Source: Geobacter sulfurreducens PCA (GTDB taxonomy: Bacteria > Desulfobacterota > Desulfuromonadia > Geobacterales > Geobacteraceae). From it: a stretch of DNA of 32,000 bases. The DNA is taken from NCBI RefSeq assembly GCF_000007985.2, contig NC_002939.5:1470001-1502000 (forward strand), written 5' to 3'. Both the position numbers and the translations under genes were made by a program. Shown piece after piece: positions 5,019-25,603 of this stretch. Under the pieces are notes generated by a model. It worked only from the letters and a program-made list of their open reading frames with translations, was not told where the DNA came from and searched no databases. Position 1 is the first letter of the stretch. Each line of letters opens with the position of its first letter.

Positions 5019-5034
5019 CCCGGAGGACCCGACC

Positions 5035-5865: not shown

Positions 5866-5899
5866 CCCGGACGCCGCAGCGAAATAAAGGAACCAAGAC

Positions 5900-6931
5900 A
5901 TGAGCATCGAGATCGCCAACGTCACCAAGCAGTTCGGCAGCTTCACCGCCCTGGACAACGTGAACCTGGCCGTCCCCTCCGGGGAGCTGACCGCCCTCCT
6001 GGGCCCCTCGGGCTCGGGCAAGACCACCCTGTTGCGGATCATCGCCGGCCTGGAGACGCCGGACGCCGGCTCGATCCGCTTCGACGGCGAGGAAACCACC
6101 GACCGCCACGTGCGGGAGCGTCAGGTCGGCTTCGTGTTCCAGCACTACGCCCTGTTCCGGCACATGACCGTGGAGGAGAACGTGGCCTTCGGCCTCACCG
6201 TGAAGCCGCGCCGGGAGAGGCGGCCGAAACAGGAGATCAGGGAGCGGGTTCACGAGCTCCTGCGCCTGGTGCAGCTTGAGGGGCTTGCCGCCCGCTTCCC
6301 GTCCCAGCTCTCCGGCGGCCAGCGCCAGCGGGTGGCCTTGGCCCGGGCCCTGGCCGTGGAACCCAAGGTGCTGCTCCTGGACGAGCCCTTCGGCGCTCTG
6401 GACGCCAAGGTGCGGGTGGAGCTGCGGCGCTGGCTGCGCCGGCTCCACGACGAGATCCACGTCACCAGCGTCTTCGTCACCCACGACCAGGAAGAGGCCC
6501 TGGAAGTGGCCGACCGGATCGTGGTCATGAACAGGGGGCGGATCGAGCAGGTGGGTACCCCGGCGGAGGTCTACGACCAGCCGGCCAATCCCTTTGTCTT
6601 CGACTTCCTGGGCAGCGTCAACCTCTTCCACTGCCGGGCCGAGCAGGGACAGGCGCGGGCCGCGTCCCCGGACCTGCCGGTGGGTTATGTGCGCTCCCAC
6701 GACATCGAGGTGGAGCGGAGCCAGACCGCCGACGCCGTGGAGGCCCAGGTGCGCCACATCCAGTCCGTGGGCCCGGCCGTGCGGGTAGAGCTCCTGGTGC
6801 GCGGCACCGGCAAGACCGTCGAGGCGGAACTCTCCCGCGACGGCGCCGAGCGCCTCGCCCTCAGCCCCGGCGAAACGGTCTATGCCCGGCCGCGCAGGAT
6901 TCAGACCTTTGTGGAGGATTATCAGATATGA
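5900..6931 (+). CDS. cysA: sulfate ABC transporter ATP-binding protein CysA
   Basis: Walker [13 protein letters not shown] signature [15 protein letters not shown], Walker B LLLDEPF, plus a C-terminal regulatory (TOBE-like) extension. Confidence 0.9.
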
Positions 6932-10111: not shown

Positions 10112-10474
10112 ATGGAAAAGGATGTCAGTGTCTCCGGTGCGGCGGAAGGAGAGCGTAGCTCGACTGGAGCAGCACCGGAAGTCAAACGTTGGAGCGCCAA
10201 CCGCAAAAAGGAGGTTGTCCTGCGGTTGATGCGCGGTGAACCAATCGATGCCTTGTCCCGTGAGTTGGGCATCGAAATCTATCGCCTGGAAGAGTGGCAT
10301 CAGAAAGCACTCCAGGGGATAGAATCTGCTCTCAAGGCTCGTGAAGGTGATCCGTTGGCAGCGGAACTCGATGCAGCCTTCAAGCGCATCGGTGAGATCA
10401 CCATGGAAAACGAGCTACTGCGGGAGAAAGCGAGGCGTGCCCACCCTTTGGCCCAGAGGAGATCGAAGAAATGA
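10112..10474 (+). CDS. IS3-family transposase OrfA (HTH plus coiled coil)
   Basis: 120 aa. RWSANRKKEVVLRLMRGEPIDALSRELGIEIYRLEEW looks like an HTH and is followed by a leucine-zipper-like helix. A GGAGG RBS is present. Confidence 0.75.
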   Translation: MEKDVSVSGAAEGERSSTGAAPEVKRWSANRKKEVVLRLMRGEPIDALSRELGIEIYRLEEWHQKALQGIESALKAREGDPLAAELDAAFKRIGEITMENELLREKARRAHPLAQRRSKK

Positions 10475-11361
10475 GTGCTACGATCTCCCCTGCCACCGGT
10501 AAAGCCTATGGCGTTCAGCGCGTCTGCCTTGCCTGGGGAGTGCCCCGCTCGTCGTTCTATAGCCGTGCAGGCAGAAAAACATTGCCTGCTGTACTGCTCA
10601 AGCGTGGTCCAAAAACACCGCTCTCTGACGACGAGGTACTTTCTCTCATCCGGACCGACCTGGAGACATCCCCCTTTGTCGGCGAAGGGCACCGTAAGGT
10701 CTGGGGACGACTACGCTTCGTCAAAGGGATAAAAGTCGGCCGCAAACGAGTGTTGCGTCTCATGCGGGAGAACAATCTGCTCTCCCCTCACCGGGTTGTT
10801 CAGGGACAGCCCAAGGACCACGCCGGCAAGATCATCACGGCGGCCCCCAACGTCATGTGGGGTACCGATGGCACCAAGATCTTCACCCTGGAAGAAGGGT
10901 GGTGCTGGTTGTTTACCGCCGTCGAGCATTGGAATGCCGAGTGCGTCGGTTGGCATGTGACCAAGAATGGCGACCGGTTTGCCGCATTGCAGCCGCTCGC
11001 CATGGGAATCAAGGCCCGTTTCGGCTCGGTCGGTGCCGCTGCTGCTCGAGGGTTGGCACTGAGGATGGATCACGGCAGCCAATACCTCTCAGAGCATTTC
11101 CAGAATCAGATCAAGTTCTGGGGAATTGCCCCAAGTTTCTCATTTGTTGCCGAACCGCAGACCAACGGGGTGACGGAACGGTTTAATCGGACTATCAAAG
11201 AGCAGGTCATCTATGGCCGCCATTACCGCACAATCGAAGAAGTAAGGATGGCAGTAGCTGACTTCATGGATCGTTACAACCGGCTGTGGCTGGTTGAAAA
11301 GCTCGGGTTCAGAAGCCCACGACAGGCTTTCGAGGAGTATCAACTCAAGAAGGCTGCGTGA
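10471..11361 (+). CDS. IS3-family transposase OrfB (DDE integrase core, rve)
   Basis: 296 aa. WGTDGTKI (first D), LRMDHGSQY (second D) and PQTNGVTERFNRTIKEQ (E) match the rve catalytic triad context. There is an ATGA overlap with orfA. Confidence 0.85.
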   Translation: MSATISPATGKAYGVQRVCLAWGVPRSSFYSRAGRKTLPAVLLKRGPKTPLSDDEVLSLIRTDLETSPFVGEGHRKVWGRLRFVKGIKVGRKRVLRLMRENNLLSPHRVVQGQPKDHAGKIITAAPNVMWGTDGTKIFTLEEGWCWLFTAVEHWNAECVGWHVTKNGDRFAALQPLAMGIKARFGSVGAAAARGLALRMDHGSQYLSEHFQNQIKFWGIAPSFSFVAEPQTNGVTERFNRTIKEQVIYGRHYRTIEEVRMAVADFMDRYNRLWLVEKLGFRSPRQAFEEYQLKKAA

Positions 11362-11423: not shown

Positions 11424-11780
11424 GTGGAAAAAACAATACGTGAATTAACAGTGAGAGTTCGGGAGTTTTGCGAAGCACGAGATTGGGATCAATTCCATGG
11501 CCCAAAGGATCTTGCTATAGGGGTCATTACAGAGGCTTCGGAACTCTTAGAGCATTTCCGCTTTCAGTCTGATGAACAGGCGTTGGCATTGTTGAATGAC
11601 CCTAAAATTAAAGAGGAGATCGAAGATGAGCTTGCCGATGTCCTATTCTTCCTGCTCCGTTTCTCGCAGTTGTTCGATGTTGACCTGACCAAGGCCCTGC
11701 TGAGGAAGATCGAGAAGAGCGAAAAGAAATATCCCGTAGAAAAGGCAAAAGGGAAGAATACGAAGTACACGAAGCTGTAG
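11424..11780 (+). CDS. MazG-like nucleoside triphosphate pyrophosphohydrolase (all-alpha NTP-PPase)
   Basis: 118 aa with a GTG start. EASELLEHF and EEIEDELADVLFFLLRF form the ExxE...ExxD metal-binding pattern of MazG-type enzymes. GC is lower than in the flanking genes. Confidence 0.75.
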   Translation: MEKTIRELTVRVREFCEARDWDQFHGPKDLAIGVITEASELLEHFRFQSDEQALALLNDPKIKEEIEDELADVLFFLLRFSQLFDVDLTKALLRKIEKSEKKYPVEKAKGKNTKYTKL

Positions 11781-11809
11781 GCCGATATCCGCGTTCACAG
11801 GGGCCAGCA

Positions 11810-14212
11810 TTGATCGTTTATTCCGCCACAAAAGCCAGGTTCAAAGAAGATGTCATGACCAATGACATCGGCGGCATCATCTTCAACGCCTTCCAGAATG
11901 CAACGGGGCGAAGTACCGGCAGGGCCGAAATCGAATCGTGGATGCACTCGCTGCAGTATATGGACCGAGTTCTCAGCGACGATGAAATCCCCCACGACGC
12001 CGGCGTCGCCATCGAGTACCACCTCCCTCAAACCTCCAAGCGTATCGACTTCATCCTAACCGGCCGGGACAGGGACCGGCGCGAGTCGGCCATTCTCGTT
12101 GAACTTAAGCAGTGGCAGAAGGCGGAGCTGACCCAGAGTGACGCCATCGTTATTACCCGCTTCAAGCACGGCACCGCCGAAACCCTTCACCCCTCCTACC
12201 AAGCCTGGTCTTACAAGCGCCTCCTTGAAGACTTCAACCAGACCGTACAAGAAGAACATATCGGTCTCTACCCCTGCGCCTACCTGCATAACTACGAAGA
12301 CGACGGGGTAATTACCCATCCGTTTTACAGCGACCATATCAAGCGGGCACCGATTTTCCTCAAGCCCGATGCCCTGAAACTGCAGCAGTTCATCAAGACT
12401 CACGTCAAATTCGGCGATACGACCCGGATTATGTACCGGATCGAGCACGGCAAGATCAAGCCGTCCAAGAACCTGGCCGATGAGCTTGCTTCAATGCTCA
12501 AGGGCAACCGGGAATTCGTCCTGATCGACGACCAGAAAGTGGTGTTCGAGAAGGCGAAACGGTTGGCAGAGCAGGCATCGGAGCACACCAAAAAGGTCCT
12601 GATCGTCGAGGGAGGGCCGGGCACTGGTAAGTCGGTTCTAGCGATTAACCTCCTGGTGGCGCTTACCGGCAAGGATCATGTCGTCCAGTACGTCACCCGC
12701 AACTCGGCCCCTCGGCTCGTCTACGAGGCCAAGCTTACCGGCCACTTCCGGAAAACTCATATTTCCAACATGTTATCCGGTTCCGGCTCGTATCACGCGA
12801 CTCCACCCAACACGTTCGGTTGCCTCATCGTGGACGAGGCGCACCGGTTGAACGAGAAGTCCGGAATGTTCAGCCACCTGGGGGAGAACCAGATCAAGGA
12901 GATCATCAGCGCCAGCAGGCTGAGTGTCTTCTTCATCGACGAAGACCAGAAGGTGACCCTGAAGGACATAGGCGACAAGGAGGCGATCCGCACCTGGGCG
13001 GAGAAGCTAGGTGCCGAAGTCGTGGAGATGAGCCTGGAGTCACAGTTTCGCTGCAATGGCTCTAACGGTTACCTGGCGTGGCTCGACAATACACTGCAGA
13101 TTCGGGAGACGGCCAACGAGACGCTGGATACCCGTGAGTACGACTTCCGCATTGTTGATAGCCCATCCGAACTGCACGGCCTGATCAAGGACAAGAACAA
13201 GATAAGTAACAAGGCACGTATGGTGGCAGGCTACTGCTGGGACTGGACCAGCAAGAAGAATCCTCATTTGAAGGACATTGTCATTGGCGACTACCGGGCG
13301 ACTTGGAACCTGGAGACAGACGGCCAGGCGTGGATCATAAAGCCCGACTCCGTCAGCGAGGTGGGGTGCATTCATACCTGCCAGGGGCTGGAGGTGGACT
13401 ACATCGGCGTCATCGTCGGGCCGGATTTGGTCGTCCGCGACGGCAGTGTGCTGACCCGGCCGGCCGAGCGGTCGAGAATGGACAAGTCGATCCAGGGGTG
13501 GAAGAAGCTGCTCAAGGATGATCCCGAAGGTGGCGCGGCGCGGCTAGACGCCATCATCAAGAACACCTACCGAACCCTCATGACGCGCGGCCAGAAGGGA
13601 TGCTACGTCTACTTCACAGACGAGGAGACACGCCGGTACTCCGCCGAACGGCTGCAGATCGGGCCGGCAGCAGAGCAGGTTGCCGAGAAACCGGTGCTGC
13701 CTGCAGACGAAGAAGCAGTGGTCCTGCCGTTCCGCCTTCTGGGGCCAGAGCAAGCGCGGCCATACGAGAACTGCGTACCGCTCTACGACTTCAAGATCGC
13801 CGCCGGCGGCTTCAGTGACGAGCAACAGGTGGATGATTGCGACTGGGTTGAACTGCCGGAAGAATTCCGTCCAAGGAAAGGGCTGTTTGTGGCCCAAGTG
13901 GTGGGTGAGTCGATGAACCGGCGCATCCCGAACGGGGCCTGGTGCCTCTTCCGCATCGCCTCGGCCGGCTCACGGAACGGCAAGGTCGTCCTCGCCTCGC
14001 ACCGGGAGATAGCCGATAACGATACCGGCGGACACTACACCGTCAAGATTTACGAGAGCACGAAGGAGAGTTTTTCTGATGGGACGTGGCGGCATGCGTC
14101 GATCATCCTGCGGCCGGACAGTGCCTTGCCTGGGTATGAGCCGATTGTGTTGAGCGAGGAGCAGGCGGAGGATTTGCGGGTGATTGGGGAGTTGGTGGCG
14201 GTGCTGGGGTGA
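11810..14212 (+). CDS. DUF2075-type (Schlafen-helicase/Nhi-like) nuclease-ATPase fused to a C-terminal LexA-like S24 peptidase domain
   Basis: 800 aa with a TTG start. N-terminal PD-(D/E)xK-like residues E69, D80, E98-x-K100 (IEYHL..RIDFILTG..ILVELKQW). Walker A VEGGPGTGKS and Walker B LIVDEAHRL. Family C-terminal motifs HTCQGLEVDYIGVIVG and YRTLMTRGQKGCYVYF. Residues about 655-790 align by eye to the LexA C-domain (IAAGG, GESM with S701, TVKIY with K746). Confidence 0.75.
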   Translation: MIVYSATKARFKEDVMTNDIGGIIFNAFQNATGRSTGRAEIESWMHSLQYMDRVLSDDEIPHDAGVAIEYHLPQTSKRIDFILTGRDRDRRESAILVELKQWQKAELTQSDAIVITRFKHGTAETLHPSYQAWSYKRLLEDFNQTVQEEHIGLYPCAYLHNYEDDGVITHPFYSDHIKRAPIFLKPDALKLQQFIKTHVKFGDTTRIMYRIEHGKIKPSKNLADELASMLKGNREFVLIDDQKVVFEKAKRLAEQASEHTKKVLIVEGGPGTGKSVLAINLLVALTGKDHVVQYVTRNSAPRLVYEAKLTGHFRKTHISNMLSGSGSYHATPPNTFGCLIVDEAHRLNEKSGMFSHLGENQIKEIISASRLSVFFIDEDQKVTLKDIGDKEAIRTWAEKLGAEVVEMSLESQFRCNGSNGYLAWLDNTLQIRETANETLDTREYDFRIVDSPSELHGLIKDKNKISNKARMVAGYCWDWTSKKNPHLKDIVIGDYRATWNLETDGQAWIIKPDSVSEVGCIHTCQGLEVDYIGVIVGPDLVVRDGSVLTRPAERSRMDKSIQGWKKLLKDDPEGGAARLDAIIKNTYRTLMTRGQKGCYVYFTDEETRRYSAERLQIGPAAEQVAEKPVLPADEEAVVLPFRLLGPEQARPYENCVPLYDFKIAAGGFSDEQQVDDCDWVELPEEFRPRKGLFVAQVVGESMNRRIPNGAWCLFRIASAGSRNGKVVLASHREIADNDTGGHYTVKIYESTKESFSDGTWRHASIILRPDSALPGYEPIVLSEEQAEDLRVIGELVAVLG

Positions 14213-14234
14213 TCTTACGGCGGATTGAGGTTCA

Positions 14235-17200
14235 ATGCGTTTAGCTCACGGCATATACGAAGCACTTCTCGATGAAGCTTTGCAGGAGGCCCTAGCCCTG
14301 CGGCCGGAACTGCGACGCGTTTTCAGCAAGATCGATCAGGAGGAGCAGCCGGCCCTCTATGCCGCCTTTGTCGCCCGGGTACTGGAGCAGGCGCTGCGAG
14401 AGGAGTCGGACCAGGAAAAGCGCCTCGCACTCTGCAACCGGATTCTTGGCTCCGTGGCTGCTGAGCCGGGTAGGGGGCATCTGGAAAAGCGCCGTCTGAT
14501 CCCGGAACAGAAGCCGCTCCTCTTGGAAATCACCCCGCCCAACTACAACCAATCCGGGCTCCCCCGGCCCCATACCTCTCTTGCACAAAGCAGTCTCTTT
14601 ACCGGAGCAGATGGTCATCTCCAGCTTGTCCATGAGTTGCTGGCTGAACTACGCTCCGCCGACGGGGTGGATATCCTCGTATCCTTCATCAAGTGGTCCG
14701 GTCTGCGGCTCCTCATGCCGGCTTTTGAAGATCTGCGTGACCGACAGGTCCCGGTGCGGCTGATCACCACCTCCTACATGGGGGCGTCCGATGCCCCGGC
14801 GGTGGAGTGGCTGGCTGGTCTCCCCAACGTGCAGGTCCGAGTCTCCTACGACACCGAGCGGACCCGGCTCCACGCCAAGGCCTATCACTTCCGGCGGCAG
14901 AGCGGCTTCTCCACCGCCTACATCGGCTCAGCCAACATGTCCCAGGCGGCGATTACCAGCGGGCTGGAGTGGAACCTGAAAGTCACCGCCCAGGACATGC
15001 CTCACGTGCTGGAGAAGTTCAGCGTCGAGTTCGAGACTTACTGGAACAGCCGGGAATTCGTCCCCTTCGATCCGGCCCGGCCGGAGCAGTTTCGCAGCGC
15101 CCTGGCCCGCGCCAAGAACAAGGAGATCAGCGGTCCGGCGGTCTTTTTCGATCTTACCCCCCACCCGTTTCAGGAGCGGATTCTGGAAGCGCTGGAGCGG
15201 GAGCGCAGCGCCCACGACCGCTGGCGCAATCTGGTCATCGCCGCCACCGGCACCGGTAAGACCGTGGTAGCGGCCTTTGATTTCAAGCGCTTCTATGAGC
15301 AGAAACAGAAGCAGGCAAAGCTCCTTTTCCTGGCCCACCGGCAGGAGATTCTCCAGCAGGCACTCGGCACCTTCCGCAACATCCTGCGGGACCAGAATTT
15401 CGGCGAACTGCAGGTCGGGCCCTATGACGCCACCCGTCTGGAGCACCTCTTCTGCTCCGTCGGTATGCTCACCTCCCGCCGCCTCTGGGAGCAGGTCGGC
15501 CCGGACTTCTACGACTACATCGTCATCGACGAAGCCCACCACGGCACGGCCGGCAGCTACCGTCCCATCTTCAACCACTTCTCCCCGCAGATACTGCTGG
15601 GACTCACCGCCACCCCGGAACGGATGGACGGCGATAACGTGGCCGCCGATTTTGGCAACCGCTTTGCCGCCGAGATCCGCCTCCCTGAAGCGCTGGAGGA
15701 GAAGCTCCTCTGCCCCTTCCACTACTTCGGCATTGCCGACCCCATCGCCATCAACGGCGATCAGTTCTGGCGCAATGGCAAGTACGATGCCGCGGCTCTG
15801 GAGAACGTCTATGTCCTCGATACGGCCAACGCCCGTAAGCGGGTGGCGGCGATCATTGAGGCTCTGAAGCGCTACGAGCCGGACGTAGCGAGCCTCAAGG
15901 GGATCGGTTTTTGCGTCACCATCCGCCATGCCGAGTACATGGCCGAGCAGTTCAGCCAGCGCGGCATCCCGTCAGCCCCCTTTGTCTCCGGCATCGACTC
16001 CGACCAGTGCGCCGACCTCCTGGCCCGGCTGAGAAACGGCCAGCTCACCTTCCTCTTCACCGTGGACAAGCTGAGTGAAGGGGTGGACGTGCCGGAGATC
16101 AACACCGTCCTCTTTCTGCGCCCCACCGAGAGCCTGACGGTCTTTCTCCAGCAGCTCGGCCGCGGCCTGCGCCATGCCCCGGAGAAGGAGTGCCTCACCG
16201 TCCTCGACTTTGTCGGTCAGGCCCACCGCCGCTACCGCATCGACACCAAGCTGAAAGCACTCCTCCCCCGGCACCGCTTCGCCATCGACAAGGAAGTGGA
16301 GCAAGATTTCCCCCATCTGCCGGCCGGCTGCGCCATCCAGCTTGACCGCCTCTCCCGCCAGTATGTGCTGGACAATATCCGGGAGAACTTCGGCCGTCTG
16401 GCGGTGCAGGTGCCGGACCGGCTCCAGACCTTTACCAGCGAGACCGGGCAGGAGCTGACCTTTGGCAACTTCATCCGCTACCACGATTACGAGCCGGAGG
16501 TGCTGCTGGCCAAGGAGTCGTGGAGCGAGTGGAAAGCCAAGGCCCAACTGGCGCCGATTCCGGTCGATCCCGATCTGGCGCGGCTGAAGAAAGCCCTGCT
16601 CCGGGCGGCCTTCATCAATGGCCCACGGGAAGCAGAGCTGCTGCGGCAACTGCTGGCCATGCTTGCCGCCGGGCAGGTGATCGAGGCGCTGGCTCTGGCC
16701 GGTTCATCGGCCATGCTGCTCTATTACCGCATCTGGGGGGATAGGGCGGAGAAGGTGGGGATTGCCTCGCTGGCAGAGGCCTTCCAACGGCTAGCCGCCA
16801 ACCCGAGCATCTGCGCCGATTTGGACGAGATTTTGGCCTGGTCGTTGGATACCACCGAAGTTGCCGGGATTGCCCCGGAGCTGCCGTATCGTGTGCCGCT
16901 GGAGTTGCACGCCCAGTATGGCATTCGTGAGGTTCAGGCCGCCTTTGGCCGTGCGACGCTGGAGAGCAGCGGCCAGACCGGGGTCGGGGTGATGCACTTT
17001 GCCGAGCAGAAGACCTATGCCCTGTTGGTGACCTTCCAGAAGACGGAAAAGGAGTTCTCCCCCAGCACCATGTATGCGGATTACCCCATCAGCCGGGAGC
17101 TGCTGCACTGGGAGTCCCAGGCCAACACCGCCCAGCATCACACCGACGGGCAGAACCTGATTCATCATCAGGAGCGGGGCTACACGGTTCTGGTATTTGC

Positions 17201-17360
17201 CCGTGGGAAGAAAAAGCGGAACGGGGTTACAGTGCCGTTCACTTACCTGGGGCCGGTGGATATGGTGAGTTATGAGAGCGAGCGGCCGATTAAGATGGTC
17301 TGGCGGCTCAGGTATGCGATGCCGGTGGAGATGTTTGAGGATAATCGGCGGGGTGGGTGA
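14235..17360 (+). CDS. PLD-family nuclease domain + SF2 (ResIII/DEAH) helicase + DUF3427-like C-terminal domain
   Basis: 1041 aa. HKD motif RLHAKAYHF...YIGSANMS. Helicase motifs I ATGTGKT, II VIDEAHH, III LTATP and VI QQLGRGLRH. The C-terminal 200 aa (YGIREVQAAFG...YALLVTFQK...YADYPIS...LHWESQ...VLVFAR) matches my recollection of DUF3427. Confidence 0.75.
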   Translation: MRLAHGIYEALLDEALQEALALRPELRRVFSKIDQEEQPALYAAFVARVLEQALREESDQEKRLALCNRILGSVAAEPGRGHLEKRRLIPEQKPLLLEITPPNYNQSGLPRPHTSLAQSSLFTGADGHLQLVHELLAELRSADGVDILVSFIKWSGLRLLMPAFEDLRDRQVPVRLITTSYMGASDAPAVEWLAGLPNVQVRVSYDTERTRLHAKAYHFRRQSGFSTAYIGSANMSQAAITSGLEWNLKVTAQDMPHVLEKFSVEFETYWNSREFVPFDPARPEQFRSALARAKNKEISGPAVFFDLTPHPFQERILEALERERSAHDRWRNLVIAATGTGKTVVAAFDFKRFYEQKQKQAKLLFLAHRQEILQQALGTFRNILRDQNFGELQVGPYDATRLEHLFCSVGMLTSRRLWEQVGPDFYDYIVIDEAHHGTAGSYRPIFNHFSPQILLGLTATPERMDGDNVAADFGNRFAAEIRLPEALEEKLLCPFHYFGIADPIAINGDQFWRNGKYDAAALENVYVLDTANARKRVAAIIEALKRYEPDVASLKGIGFCVTIRHAEYMAEQFSQRGIPSAPFVSGIDSDQCADLLARLRNGQLTFLFTVDKLSEGVDVPEINTVLFLRPTESLTVFLQQLGRGLRHAPEKECLTVLDFVGQAHRRYRIDTKLKALLPRHRFAIDKEVEQDFPHLPAGCAIQLDRLSRQYVLDNIRENFGRLAVQVPDRLQTFTSETGQELTFGNFIRYHDYEPEVLLAKESWSEWKAKAQLAPIPVDPDLARLKKALLRAAFINGPREAELLRQLLAMLAAGQVIEALALAGSSAMLLYYRIWGDRAEKVGIASLAEAFQRLAANPSICADLDEILAWSLDTTEVAGIAPELPYRVPLELHAQYGIREVQAAFGRATLESSGQTGVGVMHFAEQKTYALLVTFQKTEKEFSPSTMYADYPISRELLHWESQANTAQHHTDGQNLIHHQERGYTVLVFARGKKKRNGVTVPFTYLGPVDMVSYESERPIKMVWRLRYAMPVEMFEDNRRGG

Positions 17361-17419
17361 TTCTTGGGGCTGACAAGATAATCACTACTTCCAGACTTGT
17401 ATACAGGGGATCTAATAGC

Positions 17420-19183
17420 ATGGATGTCTTAACTGACAATGAGTTTTACCAGCACTACCTTCAGAATTCACAGCACATGATGTGGTTTTTAGGGGCAGGA
17501 ACGTCTCGTTCTGCTGGTTTGCCTACTGCTAGCGATATCATTTGGGATCTTAAACATCGATATTACTGCTTACATGAAAATCAGGATTATCAAAAACATG
17601 ACATCAATAATCATGCAATAAAAAGCAAAATCCAAAGTTATATGGATAGCAAGGGATTTCCTTTACAGTGGAGTCCAGAAGAATACTCATTTTATTTTGA
17701 ATTGGTCTTCCGCGATGATTACGAGGCGCAACGAAAGTACCTTTTAGAAGCCCTTGCCAGCAGAAAGGTGTCTCTGAATATCGGTCACCGAGTTCTTGCT
17801 GCCCTACTTGAGATGAACCAGACCAAAGTTGTTTTCACAACCAACTTTGATGATGTCATAGAAACCGCCTTCTCAGATATTAGTGGCAAGCATTTGTCTG
17901 TTTATCACCTTGAAGGATCCTATGCCGCCTTATCTGCATTGAATACCGAAGCCTTTCCCATTTACGCCAAGATTCATGGCGACTTCCGTTATCAAAAAAT
18001 AAAAAATCTTACCCCAGATCTGCAGACCAATGATCGCGAAATACATAAATGCTTTCTTGCTGCAGCTATCAGGTTCGGTCTTGTTGTATCAGGCTATAGT
18101 GGTCGTGATGAAAACGTTATGACTATGCTTCGGGCTGCAATCGATCAGAACAATGCATTCCCGCATGGGCTCTACTGGACCGTACCCTCTATTTCTAAGT
18201 CGGAGCCAGCCGTTCAGGATTTGATCACTTACGCACAAGGCAAAGGTGTTCGCGCCTATCTGGTGGAAACCGGTACATTTGATGAAATGCTCTCAAAGAT
18301 TTGGCGACAGGTGAAAGACAAACCTGCTGCCATCGATGCCAAAGTACGAACAGCCCGAGTTTGTCCCGTTTCCATACCACTACCCGGCCCCGGCAAATCC
18401 TTTCCGGCCTTGCGTACCAACGCTCTACCAGTGGTCACTCAATCCATCCGATGCGGAGTTGTAACGTTGGCTAGTCCTATAACCTTCTCCGAGCTGAAGG
18501 AAAGGATAAGTCAGAAATCGCCAAAAGCACTCCTGACGTACACGGAAAAGGTATTGTTTTTGGGTGGAGAGCCAGAAATCAGAAAGATTTTTTCAAATGA
18601 CGAGATCAATTCCATCGGTCAATACTATATTGATGAGATAGCTCAAAGCGTTGCCGCCTCTACTTTCTTGAAATCCTTTGTTGAGGAGGCAATTCTCACT
18701 GCGTTATTGCGCGAGAAACCCATTCTGCACCGTGTCCGGCATAGAACACATTATGCAGTTATACCGAATGCCTCAGCAAAAGATGACAGATTTTTGGATT
18801 TAAGAAAGGCAGTGGGGTTCAAAGGAGATCTTGGGTACATTACCGGAAACGTTACAAATGCAAAAGAATTGAGTTGGGCTGAAGCCGTGTCGATTCGTCT
18901 TGAAGAACGAGGGGGCAAGCTCTGGATCATGCTAAAACCGGAAATTTGGATAAAGCCATTGGATAGGCGAGAAGAGGCCACGGATTTCATTCGAAGTCGA
19001 AGACGTTATCGATTCAATCAATGTTCATATCAGATCCTCGATGCCTGGATCAAAATACTGTTCGGTTCAATCGGAGGTGGCGGTACGGTAAATATATCTT
19101 GTTTCCCTGATGCAGAGTTTAAAGCCGAGTTCGAGATCGGAACACGCACTGCCTTTAGTCTGGGGGTGGGATATGGCCGATAA
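17420..19183 (+). CDS. SIR2-APAZ protein (NADase partner of short pAgo; SPARSA type)
   Basis: 587 aa from the ATG at 17420, with AGGGGA as RBS. SIR2 Rossmann motifs [19 protein letters not shown] (N142) and KIHGD (H186). The long C-terminal half is consistent with APAZ. It overlaps the downstream Argonaute gene by 11 nt. GC drops sharply relative to the upstream helicase. Confidence 0.85.
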
Positions 19184-20594
19184 TCTTTCGCAGCTTGCGG
19201 CACATTCAACCATTCCAGAGCCCTTGCTTCTCTTCAAAGACAACCGTACAGACACACATCCTCTTCGTGGGCTCTCACAGTATGGGCCTTATAGCGCCTG
19301 TTTTAACCTTCCAGGTCAAGTTAGGCTAGCATACCTTGCCCCCACAGAGCATATGCGCAAGCTGGATGCCATTGTACGCGAGTTGCAGAACCCAGCTACG
19401 CCGAAGGAAGCGACGAACTATTATGTGGAGTATGGAGGATTTGAGAAAGTCTTCAAGGTGCCACTAGTTATGCCGCAGGAACATCTGAGATGTTTAGCCC
19501 TGGATGAATGTCATGGTGTTGCGGCAAATGGCAACGGACTCGCTCTTGCAGATAAGATTGTTCAGTCGATGTCTGGTCTTTTTCGACAAAAACATGCGTT
19601 TGATGTTCTGTTAGTGTATTTGCCTGCCAGCTGGAAGAAGTGTTTTGAGTATGATGGATTTGACCTGCATGACCGAATAAAGGCGAAAGTTGCTCCGCTC
19701 AATTTGCCTATTCAAATCATCAACGACACTGCGCTAACGAGACAATGCCGCGCCAATGTCATGTGGGGTGTCAGCGTTGCCCTGTATGCTAAAGCAGGCG
19801 GAATACCGTGGAAGCTGGCGGACTGGGATAAAGACGAAGCTTATATCGGACTCAGTTATGCCATCAAGAAAAATGCTGAAGGACAAGAATATACAACGTG
19901 CTGCAGCCAGGTCTTTGATCCGGATGGAACCGGCTTTGAATTTGTAGCCTACGACACGCGCGAATTTATTACCGATCGTAAAGGCAACCCGTATCTCAGC
20001 TACCAGGAAATGCAATCCGTTCTTTCAAAAAGCCTTCACCTTTATCAGAGCAGCCATAACGGACGAATGCCACGAAAAATTTTCATTCACAAAACTACGC
20101 ACTTCACTGAAGATGAAATACAGGGGGCATTCGATTCTTTCAGCAGTTCGACAGAGATCGAACTCGTGCAGATTATTCAGAGCACAAACTGGTATGGATT
20201 GAAAGTTGACGGTAAAAAGGGAGATAAACCTGTAGCTCCAGCATCATACCCAGTAGATAGAGGTTTGTATCAACCGCTGACAGAATCAGAATGCTTGCTC
20301 TGGACTCAAGGTAGCGTTATGGGGGTGAATCAACAAAATCCGGGTCAACCGGTGTTCAAGGAAGCGGCTCTTACTCCTCTACCGAACCCGATCATGTTGC
20401 GTCGTTTTTCAGGCAATGGAGGCTGGCATGCTACCTGTTCAAGCATTCTTGCGCTGACGAAGGTTGACTGGAACAATAATACGCTCTACAAAAAGTTACC
20501 AGTCACTCTCGTTTATTCACAAGTTTTCGCAGATGTTGTGAAGCAGACACCGGAAATTGTTAACGAAATATATGATTATCGGTTTTTTATGTAA
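19173..20594 (+). CDS. short prokaryotic Argonaute (MID-PIWI only, predicted catalytically inactive)
   Basis: 473 aa. PIWI-like [17 protein letters not shown] sits where active Agos carry G-x-D. The size is too small for N/PAZ domains. The ATG at 19173 lies inside the 3' end of the SIR2-APAZ gene. Confidence 0.85.
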
Positions 20595-20650
20595 TGTTTG
20601 ATCTTAACTTAAGACCAGCACATCGAGTAATACTCTAATAGGCAAAATAT

Positions 20651-21832
20651 ATGGATTTAATCGAAATAGCTGATGTAAGAGAATGGCTAAGCCAATTTAG
20701 TGAAGCAGACATCCCAATTGCTATATCGATGTTAAGATCATTGAATCTAGTTTCTCATAATGCGTTTAGTGCCGGGATTGAAAATAGCATTAAAACTATC
20801 GTTAAAAAACATGGGAAAGCCGCGGTTTTTCCAGTTAAACGTGCGTTGGTTAAGAAAGTGCCTGGAAAAGACTATCGGCATCTTTATCAGAGTGCAGATG
20901 CGATTGGTTACTTACTCACAAACCTTGAAAGAAGTATGCCTAGGAGCATTTCTGTAGAGCCAACGCACGCCAGCATGAAGGCCGAGAAGGTAAAACATAT
21001 AGTTTTTATTGATGATTTAATAGGTACTGGGAAGCGAGTTAATAGCTTTTGGCAAGAATGGGCTAACAAAAGTTATAAGAGTTGGTTGTCTTTCAGGTAT
21101 TGCGAGTTATACATCTTGAGTTATGCAGCATCTAGAAGCGGGATTGAGTATTTATTAAATGAAATACCATATCTTAAACCTGAGAATATACTTACATCAA
21201 TATCACTGCCTAGAGTCAGTCCACTTGCCAATGATGAAATGAAAAGAATTTGTAACTACTATGGGGAAAAAACCGCAAAGTCAGTAGTGAAGTTCGGTTA
21301 TGGTAACCAGATGTTAAATGTAATTTTTCAGCATGCTTGTCCTAATAATGCACCCTCCATCTTATGGTCTCCCGGAAAACAGTGGAAGGCTTTATTTCCG
21401 AACAGATCCATTCCAGCATCCTTTCATAAGGTGTTTGGTGGAACCTTTCCATTTAAAATAGCTGATTCGTTATGGGATATTCATCAGCCTCGGCTAGCAC
21501 TGGAGATTCTCGATCGTCTAGAATCAGGAAGAATACAACGGGAAACTGTTGAACTGTTAACAGTCCTGGGTTTTCTGGCGAGAGGTGTTGGCCTTATAAG
21601 AATATATGAATGTACCCTCTTGGAGAAATCTAGGGTCGACGAAGCCATTTTGATATTGAAGCAGGTGGGACTTGTAACAAAGAATTTTGAGATTACCAGT
21701 TTTGGTAAAGAAGTTCTTAATCGATTTAAGGCAACAGATAAACGGAAATATGAGCTTGTCTGCGACCAATTATTGTACTACCCTCATCAATTTAAGGGGC
21801 TCCAGAGAAAATCTAGTGAAGGCCCAACCTGA
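20651..21832 (+). CDS. phosphoribosyltransferase-like (PRTase) protein with C-terminal winged-helix-like domain; candidate retron effector
   Basis: 393 aa. KHIVFIDDLIGTGKRV (D121 D122 ... T126 G127) matches the PRPP-binding loop pattern (hydrophobic4-DD-xx-TG). The C-terminal LEILDRLESGRIQRETVELLTVLGFLARG...ILILKQVGLVTKNFEITSFGKEVL looks wHTH-like. GC is very low. Confidence 0.6.
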   Translation: MDLIEIADVREWLSQFSEADIPIAISMLRSLNLVSHNAFSAGIENSIKTIVKKHGKAAVFPVKRALVKKVPGKDYRHLYQSADAIGYLLTNLERSMPRSISVEPTHASMKAEKVKHIVFIDDLIGTGKRVNSFWQEWANKSYKSWLSFRYCELYILSYAASRSGIEYLLNEIPYLKPENILTSISLPRVSPLANDEMKRICNYYGEKTAKSVVKFGYGNQMLNVIFQHACPNNAPSILWSPGKQWKALFPNRSIPASFHKVFGGTFPFKIADSLWDIHQPRLALEILDRLESGRIQRETVELLTVLGFLARGVGLIRIYECTLLEKSRVDEAILILKQVGLVTKNFEITSFGKEVLNRFKATDKRKYELVCDQLLYYPHQFKGLQRKSSEGPT

Positions 21833-21990
21833 GTGTTGGGTACGAGTAGGCAGCGGATTCCGCGAGCCATTGGAATAGCACATGAATGAACAAGGATATT
21901 AATGGCAAACGCTTACGTTCGTATGCCTTACTACGTTCGCCATTAATGTCCTCGCTTCGCGAGGTTGAAGTAGATGAGTATCTGGAGCCC
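21797..21990 (+). ncRNA. candidate retron msr-msd non-coding RNA
   Basis: A perfect 10-bp inverted repeat, GGGCTCCAGA (21797-21806) and TCTGGAGCCC (21981-21990), brackets the PRTase-RT intergenic region. Inside are a 6-bp hairpin (21823-21840) and a long stem (21893-21911 pairing 21934-21952, one mismatch and one G:T wobble). An alternative 6-bp hairpin is at 21950-21964. The exact ends and the branching G are not determinable by eye. Confidence 0.55.
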
Positions 21991-23116: not shown

Positions 23117-23167
23117 AACAAGTGGTCGTGTCGCAACCATTTACAAGTTCATAATATTTTGAGAACC

Positions 23168-25557: not shown

Positions 25558-25603
25558 TGTTGTAAATTGTTATATTGTTGCCATCACACCGGAGATGGTG
25601 ATC

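What the first reader, a model, noticed from the sequence alone, without database searches (positions are those of the whole stretch)
11424..17360. Tightly packed MazG / DUF2075-S24 / PLD-helicase-DUF3427 trio: candidate undescribed three-gene defence operon
Three same-strand genes are separated by only 29 nt (11781-11809) and 22 nt (14213-14234):
- a MazG-like NTP pyrophosphohydrolase
- an 800-aa DUF2075 nuclease-ATPase of the Schlafen-helicase/Nhi-like kind, carrying a LexA-type peptidase domain
- a 1041-aa PLD-nuclease/SF2-helicase/DUF3427 protein

Each component type is individually enriched in defence islands. I do not recognise this combination as a named system. A plausible logic would combine two nucleic-acid-sensing or -degrading motors with a nucleotide-pool or alarmone hydrolase.

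The block sits among validated defence-system types, with TA pairs upstream and SPARSA immediately downstream.
Basis: partly seen in the sequence, partly recalled or inferred. Interest (0 to 1): 0.8.

Follow-up and report, generated by a model that had tools for sequence, protein, structure and literature searches.

The report
Two-gene cassette beside a restriction enzyme
The proposed three-gene defence operon is really a widely conserved, apparently undescribed two-gene cassette (a dCTP-pyrophosphatase-like enzyme plus a nuclease-helicase with a LexA-type self-cleaving tail) that here happens to lie next to an already known stand-alone restriction enzyme of the SauUSI type.

Summary
The three ORFs, their 29- and 22-nt gaps and their domains are confirmed in Geobacter sulfurreducens. 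The three-gene reading is not supported.

**Gene 3 (14235-17360)** is a full-length SauUSI-family Type IV restriction enzyme (PADLOC mREase_IV E 1e-199; PDB 7CLG E 3.5e-82). Only 8 of 80 loci holding homologues of the 800-aa protein have one within 10 kb, in mixed orientations. None of 36 informative loci of its own close homologues has a complete DUF2075 gene.

**Genes 1 and 2** form a real conserved pair. A MazG/DCTPP1-like gene is adjacent on the same strand in 63 of 80 loci across many bacterial phyla, and on archaeal and Bacillota plasmids.

The 800-aa protein has:
- an invariant D/ExK nuclease-like N-domain;
- a DUF2075 SF1 helicase;
- in a sub-branch, a complete LexA-like module (Ala-Gly site, Ser/Lys dyad).

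Its flanks change from genome to genome and are rich in defence genes. No library or paper searched describes the pair.

The best reading is a candidate two-gene, Nhi/AbiO-like defence module with a putative RecA*-responsive switch, next to an independent Type IV enzyme in a mosaic island. The mechanism is inferred, not shown.

The parts
11424..11780 (+). MazG-like / DCTPP1 (RS21-C6)-like all-alpha NTP pyrophosphatase, 118 aa. First gene of the conserved pair.
   Evidence: Pfam PF12643 E 2.3e-12. Full-length match to dCTP pyrophosphatase 1 structures 2A3Q/6SQW, E 3e-19. E37, E40, E43, E69 and D72 are invariant in 61/61 partner genes. Adjacent to the DUF2075 gene in 63/80 loci.
11810..14212 (+). 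800-aa nuclease-like / DUF2075 SF1 helicase / LexA-type S24 protein. Second gene of the conserved pair.
   Evidence: Pfam PF09848 E 3.1e-106 and PF00717 E 6.1e-6. Full-length homologues at 52-89% identity in many phyla. 5,921 representative clusters at E<=1e-3.
11810..12574 (+). N-terminal domain (aa 1-255), a putative PD-(D/E)xK-type nuclease with E69, D80, E98 and K100.
   Evidence: E69, D80, E98 and K100 are 80/80 invariant. Sub-threshold Pfam NERD hits in two homologues. AlphaFold model pLDDT 91.8. Foldseek finds no significant match, but several of the best-ranked hits are PD-(D/E)xK nucleases.
12590..13621 (+). DUF2075 / Schlafen-group-3-type SF1 helicase-ATPase core (aa 261-604). Walker A is GGPGTGKS (aa 268-275); Walker B is DEAH (aa 342-345).
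   Evidence: Pfam PF09848 covers 261-604. In Walker A, G268-K274 are 80/80 conserved (residue 275 is Ser in 66, Thr in 14); Walker B D342, E343, A344, H345 are 80/80.
13760..14209 (+). LexA-like S24 autoprotease module (aa 651-800). Predicted cleavage site Ala665-Gly666 (nt 13802-13807), Ser701 (13910-13912), Lys746 (14045-14047). A poorly conserved linker (aa 605-650) precedes it.
   Evidence: A profile of this region hits only LexA structures (12/12, best E 0.0055). AAG aligns on LexA A84-G85 and GESM on the Ser119 motif. S701 74/74, K746 73/74, A665 71/74 and G666 70/74. The module is absent from about 6/80 homologues and from most of the wider family.
14235..17360 (+). SauUSI-family Type IV (modification-dependent, ATP-dependent) restriction enzyme: PLD nuclease, SF2 translocase and DUF3427/SRA-like reader. 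An independent system, not part of the pair.
   Evidence: PADLOC mREase_IV PDLC03659 E 1.2e-199, covering 16-936 of 945. PDB 7CLG (SauUSI) E 3.5e-82 in two stretches. HxK at 213-215, motif I ATGTGKT at 337, DEAH at 432, QQLGRGLR at 639. Close homologues are not linked to DUF2075.
10112..11361 (+). IS3-family insertion sequence (orfA 10112-10474, orfB integrase-core 10471-11361), directly upstream of mazG. Context only.
   Evidence: Pfam rve, rve_3 and HTH_21 on orfB. It ends 62 nt before mazG. Short-read contigs L001 and L002 break here.
17357..23116 (+). Low-GC inserted block holding SPARSA (SIR2-APAZ plus short pAgo) and a type III-A retron (PRTase plus RT). Context only.
   Evidence: PADLOC Aga_SIR2 2.2e-209, pAgo_I 2.3e-193, PRTase_III-A 9.8e-90 and RT_III-A 1.6e-165. 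Per-gene GC 0.39-0.47 (SIR2-APAZ, pAgo, PRTase), against 0.58-0.63 for DUF2075-S24 and the SauUSI-like gene. DNA similarity to L010 stops at the SauUSI-like stop codon.
23159..24148 (+). HNH_2 endonuclease, homologous to the gene that sits directly upstream of mazG in Geomesophilobacter. A recurrent optional neighbour of the pair.
   Evidence: tblastn 69% identity to the L010 HNH_2 gene. Pfam HNH_2 E 2.1e-12. HNH_2 genes lie near the pair in 7/80 loci.

Best explanation
The 5.9-kb block holds two separate units that were brought together in a mosaic defence island.

**Unit A, genes 1 and 2 (11424-14212).** This is a conserved, horizontally mobile two-gene cassette.
- The 800-aa protein has the Nhi/AbiO layout: an N-terminal PD-(D/E)xK-like nuclease followed by a DUF2075 SF1 helicase.
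- In this sub-branch it also carries a complete LexA C-terminal module: an Ala-Gly cleavage site and a Ser/Lys dyad.
- Its partner is a catalytically intact DCTPP1-like NTP pyrophosphatase.

Inferred mechanism for Unit A, with my probabilities:
1. The cassette is an anti-phage or anti-MGE module (about 0.6).
2. The helicase engages ssDNA or replication intermediates and the nuclease degrades them, as in Nhi (about 0.4).
3. RecA*-ssDNA filaments formed during infection or DNA damage trigger self-cleavage at A665-G666. This removes the dimerising S24 domain and leaves a protein equivalent to the natural S24-less homologues, so it switches activity on (about 0.25). The opposite polarity, destruction of the enzyme during the host SOS response, is about 0.15.
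4. The MazG-like enzyme hydrolyses dCTP or 5-modified dCTP, so that precursors are removed while templates are attacked (about 0.25).

**Unit B, gene 3 (14235-17360).** This is a self-sufficient SauUSI-type Type IV restriction enzyme. Its DUF3427/SRA-like domain reads modified cytosine, its SF2 ATPase translocates along DNA, and its PLD dimer cuts.

Co-transcription of the two units is possible, but it does not make them one system.
For: Shown:
- A MazG-like gene is adjacent on the same strand in 63 of 80 species-level loci (about 63 of 76 informative). Gaps are mostly -4 to +110 nt.
- It is the only conserved neighbour in an all-against-all neighbour census.
- The pair is annotated side by side on haloarchaeal (Halalkalicoccus) and Priestia plasmids. 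On a Marivirga plasmid the pyrophosphohydrolase is annotated directly upstream of a largely unannotated DUF2075 match. A Microcystis phage record has the same layout.
- In the closest relatives (85-88% identity) the downstream gene is Fic, RhuM, an integrase, HNH_2 or an unknown protein. It is SauUSI-like only in L010.
- A SauUSI-like gene lies within 10 kb in 8 of 80 loci, in mixed orientations. Those copies are only 35-40% identical to the window's, apart from L010.
- None of 36 loci of 55-92%-identical SauUSI-like genes has a complete DUF2075 gene.
- Two loci keep an intact SauUSI-like gene beside a decayed scar of the S24 3' end.
- Gene 3 matches PADLOC mREase_IV at E 1e-199 and 7CLG at E 3.5e-82. 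SauUSI works as a single protein.
- Motif conservation: E69, D80, E98, K100 and the Walker A/B core residues (G268-K274; D342, E343, H345) are 80/80. S701, K746, A665 and G666 are 70-74 of 74.
- A profile of the S24 region hits only LexA structures, with the cleavage site and the Ser motif in register.
- MazG metal-binding residues are 61/61, with a full-length match to DCTPP1.
- The flanks of the pair match many PADLOC defence families.

From the literature:
- Nhi and AbiO share the nuclease plus SF1B/DUF2075 layout and defend as single genes.
- ssDNA binding to the SLFN11 helicase domain activates that protein.
- MazG-like enzymes are predicted NTP-targeting effectors in some defence systems.
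Against: - No experiment supports any activity of the pair.
- About 13 informative loci, many from Verrucomicrobiota, keep DUF2075-S24 without MazG. MazG may therefore be dispensable.
- The same MazG subfamily (up to 81% identity) occurs in 49 viral contigs with no DUF2075 nearby.
- Co-evolution of the two genes is weak once close relatives are removed (r = 0.18).
- The nuclease assignment of the N-domain is only suggestive. Foldseek's best E is about 0.1 and the NERD hits are below threshold.
- The LexA profile hits are weak (E 0.0055-0.6).
- SauUSI-type enzymes are the commonest single defence family right next to the pair (5-6 of 116 flanking proteins). When present, 7 of 8 lie within 3 kb. 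Some functional affinity therefore cannot be excluded.
- The trio is conserved as a block in one other genus, L010.
Confidence: 0.72

Rival explanations
1. This is an obligate three-gene system. MazG, DUF2075-S24 and the PLD-helicase-DUF3427 protein work together as one operon-encoded defence machine.
For: - Same strand, gaps of 29 and 22 nt, and no terminator-like site between the genes.
- The block is conserved at 79% DNA identity in Geomesophilobacter.
- The arrangement DUF2075-S24 followed by a SauUSI-like gene recurs in a verrucomicrobial MAG and a Marinobacter MAG (L031, L063).
Against: - 72 of 80 loci lack the third gene within 10 kb. Five of the eight that have one do not share the window's layout: four are on the other strand and one is 6.7 kb away.
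- Among the nearest relatives, L003-L007 and L015 (68-88% identity) lack it; of this group only L010 has it.
- None of 36 informative loci links it in the reverse direction.
- Intact SauUSI-like genes persist after loss of DUF2075-S24.
- The family prototype is active alone.
- SPARSA is packed equally tightly against gene 3.
Confidence: 0.04
2. The units are independent but thematically cooperating. The pair, the SauUSI-like enzyme and the HNH_2 and Mrr nucleases would form a facultative toolkit against phages with modified cytosine. MazG would destroy modified dCTP while the Type IV enzymes cut modified DNA.
For: - Type IV-like nucleases lie near the pair in 13 of 80 loci (SauUSI-like 8, HNH_2 7, Mrr 5).
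- mREase_IV is the most frequent PADLOC family among immediate flanks.
- 7 of 8 SauUSI-like neighbours lie within 3 kb.
- HNH_2 overlaps mazG by 4 nt in L039 and L106.
- The window itself carries HNH_2 and Mrr genes.
- A published note records DUF3427 enzymes adjacent to DUF2075 NTPases.
- DCTPP1 prefers 5-modified dCTP (my own knowledge, not tested here).
- An analogous NTP-PPase/HNH/DUF2075 row occurs on a B. cereus plasmid.
Against: - I computed no background rate. Type IV enzymes are common island residents, and Fic is just as frequent (9 of 80).
- The neighbouring SauUSI-like genes belong to divergent clades, not to a dedicated pair-associated clade.
- The B. cereus proteins are not detectably orthologous.
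- The substrate of this MazG is unknown.
Confidence: 0.15
3. DUF2075-S24 is a stand-alone Nhi/AbiO-like single-gene defence. The MazG-like gene is a frequent but functionally separate passenger, for example a nucleotide-pool sanitiser common on mobile elements.
For: - Nhi, Nhi-like and AbiO act as single genes.
- About 13 loci lack MazG.
- The MazG subfamily is abundant in viral contigs without DUF2075.
- Co-evolution at depth is weak.
- mazG differs in GC3 from its neighbour in the window.
Against: - 63 of 80 adjacencies occur across phyla and in two domains of life, always on the same strand. The MazG-like gene is usually upstream, with 4-nt overlaps or gaps under 30 nt.
- It is the only conserved neighbour while everything else varies.
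- DUF2075-linked MazGs are each other's nearest relatives in 59 of 61 cases.
Confidence: 0.15
4. The pair is not an immune system at all. It would be an SOS or DNA-repair (or mobile-element maintenance) module: a damage-regulated helicase-nuclease plus a house-cleaning NTP pyrophosphatase.
For: - LexA-type S24 modules are classically SOS-linked, and MazG/DCTPP1 enzymes are house-cleaning enzymes (established knowledge).
- No defence library recognises the pair.
Against: - The distribution is patchy, with 85-88% identity across distant taxa.
- Flanks are variable and dominated by defence or mobile-element genes: Fic, AbiE, Mrr, HNH, SauUSI-like, RhuM, integrases and many PADLOC families.
- The architecture is shared with the validated defence proteins Nhi and AbiO.
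Confidence: 0.12

Closest known systems
SauUSI (Staphylococcus aureus Type IV restriction enzyme; PDB 7CLG)
   Same: Gene 3 has the same collinear architecture: N-terminal PLD nuclease with HxK and GSxN, SF2 ATPase motifs I, II and VI, and a C-terminal DUF3427/SRA-like reader. It matches 7CLG at E 3.5e-82 and the PADLOC mREase_IV model end to end. Like SauUSI, it occurs without fixed partner genes.
   Different: About 90 aa longer at the N-terminus. In this clade the PLD motif is HAKAYHF[K/H/R] and lacks the acidic residue of SauUSI's H-x-K-x4-E. Target specificity is untested.
Nhi (S. epidermidis SERP2475), Nhi-like (Millman 2022) and lactococcal AbiO
   Same: An N-terminal restriction-endonuclease-like domain followed by a DUF2075/SLFN-group-3 SF1(B) helicase, located in defence islands and on plasmids. 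Weak PADLOC hits to the AbiO and Nhi models over the P-loop part.
   Different: Only 36-bit partial matches to the Nhi and AbiO models. The N-domain has no significant sequence or fold match. It carries an extra LexA-type S24 module and has a conserved MazG-like partner gene. Neither feature appears in the papers I found.
LexA / UmuD / lambda CI family (peptidase S24, RecA*-stimulated self-cleavage)
   Same: The Ala-Gly site lies 36 residues before the catalytic Ser (35 in LexA). The GxSM Ser motif and the TVK Lys motif are present. A profile of the region retrieves only LexA structures.
   Different: The DNA-binding HTH domain is replaced by a 650-aa nuclease-helicase. Self-cleavage and RecA dependence are untested.
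DCTPP1 / RS21-C6 (MazG-like all-alpha dCTP pyrophosphatase)
   Same: Full-length, ungapped alignment at E 3e-19. The ExxE...ExxD metal-binding acidic residues and the FHxP(K/R) motif are conserved.
   Different: A prokaryotic 118-aa protein encoded in an operon with a helicase-nuclease. Its substrate is unknown. Close relatives also occur alone in phage genomes.
Human SLFN11 (group 3 Schlafen)
   Same: Shares the DUF2075-type helicase domain. That domain binds ssDNA and couples replication stress to an effector nuclease.
   Different: There is no Schlafen RNase core here. The N-terminal domain is a different, DNA-nuclease-like fold, and the stress link would come through a LexA-like module.
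dNTP-depleting defences (dCTP deaminase, dGTPase, PUA-Calcineurin-CE-HAD systems with rare MazG-like variants)
   Same: A nucleotide-triphosphate-hydrolysing enzyme placed in a defence context. A MazG-like domain has been predicted as an NTP-targeting effector.
   Different: Here the MazG-like protein is a separate small protein paired with a helicase-nuclease. No PUA or HAD partners are present.

Membership tests
SauUSI-family Type IV restriction enzyme (gene 3) | N-terminal PLD-family nuclease with HxK catalytic motif | tested here: met
   PLDc_2 E 6.5e-9 and RE_NgoFVII PLD E 3.1e-7. H213-A-K215 and GSAN are present and aligned to the SauUSI HAK motif. The acidic residue four positions after K is not conserved in this clade.
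   ResIII E 2.3e-33 and Helicase_C E 6.6e-12. ATGTGKT at 337, DEAH at 432 and QQLGRGLR at 639.
SauUSI-family Type IV restriction enzyme (gene 3) | C-terminal DUF3427 / SRA-like target-recognition domain | tested here: met
   DUF3427 E 9.6e-23 over aa 843-1035. A second aligned stretch to 7CLG covers residues 832-918.
SauUSI-family Type IV restriction enzyme (gene 3) | Collinear full-length match to a family model | tested here: met
   PADLOC PDLC03659 mREase_IV E 1.2e-199, covering protein 111-1034 and profile 16-936 of 945.
SauUSI-family Type IV restriction enzyme (gene 3) | Acts as a single polypeptide with no obligatory partner genes | tested here: met
   None of 36 informative loci of close homologues has a complete DUF2075 gene, and 1 of 80 has a MazG-like gene. 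Intact genes sit next to decayed S24 scars. The prototype is active alone.
SauUSI-family Type IV restriction enzyme (gene 3) | ATP-dependent cleavage of 5mC/5hmC-modified DNA | not testable with these tools
   Needs biochemistry or restriction assays.
Nhi / Nhi-like / AbiO nuclease-helicase defence proteins (gene 2) | DUF2075 (SLFN group 3-type) SF1 helicase domain with intact Walker A and B | tested here: met
   PF09848 E 3.1e-106. Walker A core (G268-K274) and DEAH are 80/80.
Nhi / Nhi-like / AbiO nuclease-helicase defence proteins (gene 2) | N-terminal PD-(D/E)xK nuclease domain | tested here: inconclusive
   E69, D80, E98-x-K100 are invariant. NERD hits at 18-20 bits fall below the 22.1 cut-off. 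In the high-confidence model, several of the best-ranked Foldseek hits are PD-(D/E)xK nucleases, but all have E >= 0.1 and TM <= 0.31.
Nhi / Nhi-like / AbiO nuclease-helicase defence proteins (gene 2) | Full-length match to the family's detection models | tested here: not met
   PADLOC Nhi (E 9.6e-10) and AbiO (E 7.2e-10) match only aa 234-416. PDC-S41 matches only aa 407-602. No NCBIfam anti-phage model matches.
Nhi / Nhi-like / AbiO nuclease-helicase defence proteins (gene 2) | Single-gene system | tested here: not met
   A MazG-like partner is conserved in 63/80 loci.
Nhi / Nhi-like / AbiO nuclease-helicase defence proteins (gene 2) | Protects against phage | not testable with these tools
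   Only genomic context is available.
LexA-type S24 self-cleaving module (C-terminus of gene 2) | Ser-Lys catalytic dyad | tested here: met
   S701 (GESM) is 74/74 and K746 (TVK) is 73/74. Pfam S24 scores 26.4 bits against a cut-off of 23.3.
LexA-type S24 self-cleaving module (C-terminus of gene 2) | Ala-Gly (or Cys-Gly) scissile bond about 35 residues upstream of the Ser | tested here: met
   A665 is 71/74 and G666 is 70/74, 36 residues before S701. The site aligns on LexA A84-G85.
LexA-type S24 self-cleaving module (C-terminus of gene 2) | RecA*-stimulated or alkaline self-cleavage | not testable with these tools
   Requires protein work.
LexA-type S24 self-cleaving module (C-terminus of gene 2) | N-terminal HTH DNA-binding domain (repressor function) | tested here: not met
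   The N-terminal 650 aa are the nuclease-like domain and the helicase. This is therefore not a LexA/CI repressor, only its cleavage module.
MazG-like / DCTPP1 all-alpha NTP pyrophosphatase (gene 1) | Family model above threshold and ExxE...ExxD metal-binding motif | tested here: met
   PF12643 scores 47.4 bits against a cut-off of 27. E37, E40, E69 and D72 align with the acidic residues of DCTPP1 and are 61/61 conserved.
MazG-like / DCTPP1 all-alpha NTP pyrophosphatase (gene 1) | dCTP / 5-modified-dCTP substrate preference | not testable with these tools
   Needs enzyme assays.
   All three genes occur in the window's arrangement in only 2 of 80 loci (L010, L063); L031 has that arrangement but lacks MazG. 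A SauUSI-like gene lies within 10 kb in 8 of 80. The reverse test gives 0 of 36.

The most novel reading that the evidence does not exclude
The MazG/DCTPP1-like plus nuclease-DUF2075-helicase-S24 cassette would be a new, widespread two-gene anti-phage system. In it, a LexA-type self-cleavage switch reads RecA*-coated ssDNA made during phage replication. The switch licenses a Schlafen-type helicase-nuclease, while the partner enzyme strips (modified) dCTP. This would be a bacterial counterpart of ssDNA-triggered SLFN11 immunity, possibly cooperating with neighbouring Type IV nucleases against cytosine-modified phages.
Probability: 0.2. Interest if true: 0.8.

Novelty: new variant of a known kind. 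Interest (0 to 1): 0.55.

Why it matters
- **Annotation.** Tight spacing in defence islands is not evidence of a shared system. One third of the proposed "new system" is an already characterised Type IV restriction enzyme.
- **Discovery.** The analysis isolates a conserved two-gene cassette. Current defence libraries and the searched literature do not describe it.
- **Testable biology.** The fusion of a Schlafen-type helicase-nuclease to a complete LexA cleavage module gives a directly testable hypothesis for how a nuclease-helicase immune protein could sense infection or DNA damage through RecA*-ssDNA. How Nhi-, AbiO- and Hna-type proteins are activated is still an open question.
- **Nucleotide metabolism.** The DCTPP1-like partner offers a possible new link between nucleotide-pool editing and nucleic-acid degradation in immunity.

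Tried and rejected
- **Full-length AlphaFold model.** With a 14-sequence alignment it gave pLDDT 43.5, so I discarded it. I re-did the N-domain alone with 121 sequences and reached pLDDT 91.8.
- **Foldseek of the N-domain against the PDB.** No significant match. Only a qualitative enrichment of PD-(D/E)xK nucleases among the top hits.
- **Sequence and profile searches of gene 2 and its N-domain against the PDB.** Nothing useful.
- **Promoter, terminator and LexA-box scans around mazG.** No more sites than in shuffled sequence, no LexA box, and upstream regions not alignable between relatives. The IS3 insertion has replaced the native upstream DNA in the window.
- **Profile search for divergent MazG in the MazG-less loci.** None found. 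Small upstream ORFs there have no Pfam match.
- **Mirror-tree test.** Significant overall (r = 0.58, 0 of 999 permutations), but driven by close relatives (r = 0.18 without them). I do not use it as strong evidence.
- **Scans of viral contigs.** MazG-like genes are common there without DUF2075, and DUF2075 relatives are nearly absent.
- **Is the B. cereus NTP-PPase/HNH/DUF2075 row the same system?** The proteins are not detectably orthologous, so I kept it only as an analogy.
- **Procedural errors.** One PADLOC batch call failed on a size limit and was repeated with fewer sequences. In one search I scanned the wrong strand at 23141-24127, which I corrected.
- **Not resolved.** I could not obtain the Nhi-like (Millman) sequence, so direct membership in that family remains untested.

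Full report
**Observation.** The window comes from Geobacter sulfurreducens: the 800-aa protein is 100% identical to a protein of that species. Three same-strand ORFs lie exactly where reported. They are 11424-11780 (118 aa), 11810-14212 (800 aa) and 14235-17360 (1041 aa), separated by 29 and 22 nt. Pfam confirms MazG-like for gene 1, SLFN-g3_helicase/DUF2075 plus Peptidase_S24 for gene 2, and PLDc_2/ResIII/Helicase_C/DUF3427 for gene 3. The block sits in a mosaic island of roughly 9.3-28 kb that contains:
- Phd/ParE;
- an IS3-family element that ends 62 nt before mazG;
- the three genes;
- SPARSA;
- a type III-A retron (PRTase plus RT);
- an HNH_2 endonuclease;
- Mrr;
- AbiEii;
- DUF559.

Tight spacing does not discriminate here. 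The SIR2-APAZ ORF overlaps the stop codon of gene 3 by 4 nt although GC3 drops from 0.80 to 0.43, and mazG (GC3 0.54) differs from its neighbours (0.77 and 0.80). Promoter-like and terminator-like sites are no more frequent than in shuffled sequence.

**Gene 3 is a known, self-contained enzyme.** It matches the PADLOC Type IV model PDLC03659 end to end (E 1.2e-199). It also matches PDB 7CLG (E 3.5e-82) in two stretches that cover the PLD, ATPase and C-terminal reader parts. 7CLG is the SauUSI structure. SauUSI is a homodimeric enzyme built from a PLD nuclease, a translocating SF2 ATPase and an SRA-like reader, and it cuts 5mC/5hmC DNA on its own. HxK (213-215), GSAN, motif I, DEAH and motif VI are all present. 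The acidic residue of SauUSI's H-x-K-x4-E is not conserved in this clade.

**Synteny test starting from gene 2.** An alignment of diverse homologues retrieved 80 loci from one-genome-per-species records at 52-88% identity. They come from Desulfuromonadota, Gamma-, Beta- and Alphaproteobacteria, Verrucomicrobiota, Kiritimatiellota, Elusimicrobiota, Acidobacteriota, candidate-phyla-radiation lineages and others.
- A MazG-like gene lies directly beside the DUF2075 gene on the same strand in 63 of 80 loci. It is upstream in most and downstream in a Halomonas-group clade, with gaps mostly from -4 to +110 nt.
- Four of the remaining loci lack enough flank. About 13 truly lack it even by profile search, and many of these are Verrucomicrobiota.
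- In an all-against-all census of neighbours, MazG is the only conserved one.
- A SauUSI-like gene lies within 10 kb in 8 of 80 loci. It is directly downstream on the same strand in only 3 (L010, L031, L063). Elsewhere it is on the other strand or kilobases away.
- That frequency is similar to Fic (9), HNH_2 (7), Mrr (5) and RhuM (5).
- In the closest relatives (85-88% identity, each with MazG) the downstream gene is Fic, RhuM, an integrase, HNH_2 or an unknown protein. Only Geomesophilobacter (L010) shares the trio, as a block with 79% DNA identity that ends exactly at the SauUSI-like stop codon.

**Synteny test starting from gene 3.** Eighty metagenomic loci carry SauUSI-like genes 55-95% identical to the window's. 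Of the 36 with at least 2.5 kb upstream, none has a complete DUF2075 gene, and one of the 80 has a MazG-like gene. Two loci (L085, L129) keep an intact SauUSI-like gene preceded by a decayed 50-150-nt scar of the S24 3' end. So this lineage once sat downstream of a DUF2075-S24 gene and has been maintained without it. The SauUSI-like genes found near the pair in other phyla are only 35-40% identical to the window's. The window's nearest relatives are stand-alone, so no dedicated pair-associated clade exists.

**The pair.**
- *Extent.* The annotated combination "nucleotide pyrophosphohydrolase + DUF2075 protein" also occurs on a haloarchaeal plasmid and a Priestia plasmid. On a Marivirga plasmid the pyrophosphohydrolase is annotated and the DUF2075 match lies directly downstream, largely unannotated. 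A record named Microcystis phage Mwe-JY31 has the same layout. In all of these the DUF2075 protein is about 615 aa and lacks S24.
- *Family size.* An exhaustive search gives 5,921 representative clusters (924 at E <= 1e-30). Most full-length representatives are 615-650 aa, and a minority of about 800 aa carry S24. S24 is therefore an add-on in one sub-branch.
- *MazG-like partner.* It aligns over its full length, without gaps, to dCTP pyrophosphatase 1 (E 3e-19). E37, E40, E43, E69 and D72 are invariant in 61 of 61 partners.
- *Limits on exclusivity.* The MazG subfamily is not exclusive to the pair. Forty-nine viral contigs carry relatives with no DUF2075 nearby. DUF2075-linked MazGs are nevertheless each other's nearest relatives in 59 of 61 cases. 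Divergences of the two genes correlate (r = 0.58; 0 of 999 permutations reach this), but only weakly once close pairs are removed (r = 0.18).

**Anatomy of the 800-aa protein.**
- *aa 1-255.* This is a conserved domain with E69, D80, E98-x-K100 invariant in 80 of 80 homologues. A 121-sequence alignment gave a confident model (pLDDT 91.8). Foldseek found nothing significant, but several of the best-ranked hits are PD-(D/E)xK nucleases: ACE1/Cas4-family, Card1, EndoMS, Can2, EcoO109I and MspJI. Two homologues give sub-threshold NERD hits over the same stretch. I treat "nuclease" as likely but unproven.
- *aa 261-604.* This is the DUF2075 SF1 helicase with an invariant Walker A core (G268-K274) and Walker B DEAH.
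- *aa 605-650.* This is a poorly conserved linker.
- *aa 651-800.* This is a complete LexA C-terminal module. A profile of the region hits only LexA structures (12 of 12, best E 0.0055). The family's AAG aligns on LexA Ala84-Gly85 and GESM on the Ser119 motif. Ser701, Lys746 and Ala665-Gly666 are conserved in 70-74 of the 74 S24-bearing homologues. The cleavage site lies 36 residues before the Ser, against 35 in LexA.

**Context argues for defence.** The genes that flank the pair change from genome to genome. They include Fic/SoFic, AbiEi/AbiEii, Mrr, HNH, SauUSI-like, RhuM and integrases. Among 116 nearest flanking proteins, 251 PADLOC families are hit, led by mREase_IV (5-6 proteins), HNH (5) and SoFic (4). 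Identities of 85-88% between Geobacter and MAGs labelled Gammaproteobacteria indicate horizontal transfer, or possibly mis-binning.

**How it most likely works.**
- *Shown.* Two units exist. Catalytic motifs are intact and conserved. The cassette is mobile and lies in defence islands.
- *Inferred for Unit B.* It restricts DNA carrying modified cytosine in the way SauUSI does.
- *Inferred for Unit A, by analogy with Nhi.* Nhi is a PD-(D/E)xK nuclease plus SF1B DUF2075 helicase that degrades phage replication intermediates, with SSB-linked escape. By analogy the helicase would load on ssDNA or replication intermediates and the N-domain would cut.
- *The LexA module.* It suggests that RecA*-ssDNA filaments trigger self-cleavage at A665-G666. 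The natural S24-less homologues correspond to the predicted cleavage product, so I favour S24 as a removable latch, meaning activation.
- *The alternative polarity.* The new C-terminus would end in ...K-I-A-A, which resembles LexA's ...V-A-A. From my own recollection that sequence is a ClpXP degron. Destruction of the enzyme during the host SOS response is therefore a live alternative.
- *The DCTPP1-like partner.* It most plausibly hydrolyses dCTP or modified dCTP. MazG-like enzymes have been predicted as NTP-targeting effectors in other defence systems. Its absence from about 13 loci shows that it is not indispensable everywhere.

**Comparison with the known, and novelty.**
- Gene 3 is already known, as a new member of the SauUSI family.
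- Gene 2 works like Nhi, Nhi-like and AbiO but fails their detection models. It gives only 36-bit matches over the P-loop part and no NCBIfam anti-phage hit.
- Gene 2 also differs from those proteins by its S24 module and its conserved partner gene.
- Ten full-text searches found no paper that links DUF2075 with MazG, a pyrophosphohydrolase or LexA. The recent bacterial-Schlafen papers concern the RNase domain, not this helicase.
- One paper notes DUF3427 enzymes beside DUF2075 NTPases, which keeps a weak functional affinity between the two units on the table.
- I could not test the DefenseFinder Nhi-like model or the Nhi-like sequence.

**Verdict.** The "trio" is a pair plus an independent, known enzyme. 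The pair is a new variant of the Nhi/AbiO kind, and its mechanism is inferred only. Interest is moderate (0.55). The LexA-switch idea would be notable if it proved true.

Noticed in passing
window 10112-11361: An IS3-family element (orfA 10112-10474 overlapping orfB/rve 10471-11361) ends 62 nt upstream of mazG. It has replaced whatever native promoter region the pair had. Short-read contigs carrying the same genes break at this point.
   Followed up: partly
window 17357-23116: A low-GC block (per-gene GC 0.39-0.47 for SIR2-APAZ, pAgo and PRTase) holds SPARSA and a type III-A retron (PRTase 20651-21832, RT 21974-23116; PADLOC E 9.8e-90 and 1.6e-165). DNA similarity to Geomesophilobacter stops exactly at the SauUSI-like stop codon, so the block looks like an insertion between the SauUSI-like and HNH_2 genes. 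I did not look for the retron's msr/msd RNA.
   Followed up: partly
window 23159-24148 (+): An HNH_2 endonuclease is 69% identical to the gene that sits directly upstream of mazG in Geomesophilobacter (L010 4545-5522). The same gene set is therefore arranged in a different order in the two genomes. Its N-terminal 200 aa have no Pfam match.
   Followed up: partly
L039 1767-3049; L106 9157-10448; L031 8511-9494; L015 3376-4293: HNH_2-type endonucleases recur next to the pair (7/80 loci). In L039 and L106 the HNH_2 gene overlaps mazG by 4 nt. L106 has SauUSI-like, HNH_2 and MazG genes but no DUF2075. This may be an optional third partner, or a MazG-HNH module in its own right.
   Followed up: partly
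L218 (B. cereus plasmid NZ_CP095378) 1202-4794: The same-strand row is NTP pyrophosphohydrolase, HNH endonuclease, then DUF2075 helicase, in a distant DUF2075 subfamily. The MazG and HNH proteins are not detectably orthologous to the window's, so the arrangement is analogous and possibly convergent.
   Followed up: partly
L085 160-307; L129 5897-5949: Decayed remnants of the 3' end of a DUF2075-S24 gene lie immediately upstream of intact SauUSI-like genes. These are scars of a former adjacency. Only 2 of 64 informative loci show them.
   Followed up: yes
L167 (Microcystis phage Mwe-JY31, PP438423) 4657-6863: A record deposited as a 22-kb phage genome carries the MazG-like plus S24-less DUF2075 pair (59% identity). 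This may be a defence cassette carried by a phage or satellite, or a mis-assigned host fragment.
   Followed up: no
L003, L005 (MAGs labelled Gammaproteobacteria / Chromatiales): The DUF2075-S24 and MazG proteins are 82-88% identical to the Geobacter ones. This indicates recent horizontal transfer between classes, or binning errors.
   Followed up: no
window 24203-28036: Further island residents: Mrr-type nuclease with a Zn-ribbon (24203-25249), a probable AbiEi (25956-26618, no Pfam hit) with AbiEii (26615-27490), and a DUF559 Vsr-like endonuclease (27509-28036).
   Followed up: partly
window 14871-14894 (aa 213-220 of gene 3) and homologues in L083-L162: The PLD motif of this SauUSI-like clade reads HAKAYHF followed by K, H or R, instead of the acidic residue in SauUSI's H-x-K-x4-E.
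   Followed up: partly
L056 16816-17142: A second MazG-like gene lies about 4 kb downstream of the pair in a Polaromonas MAG, in addition to the adjacent one.
   Followed up: no
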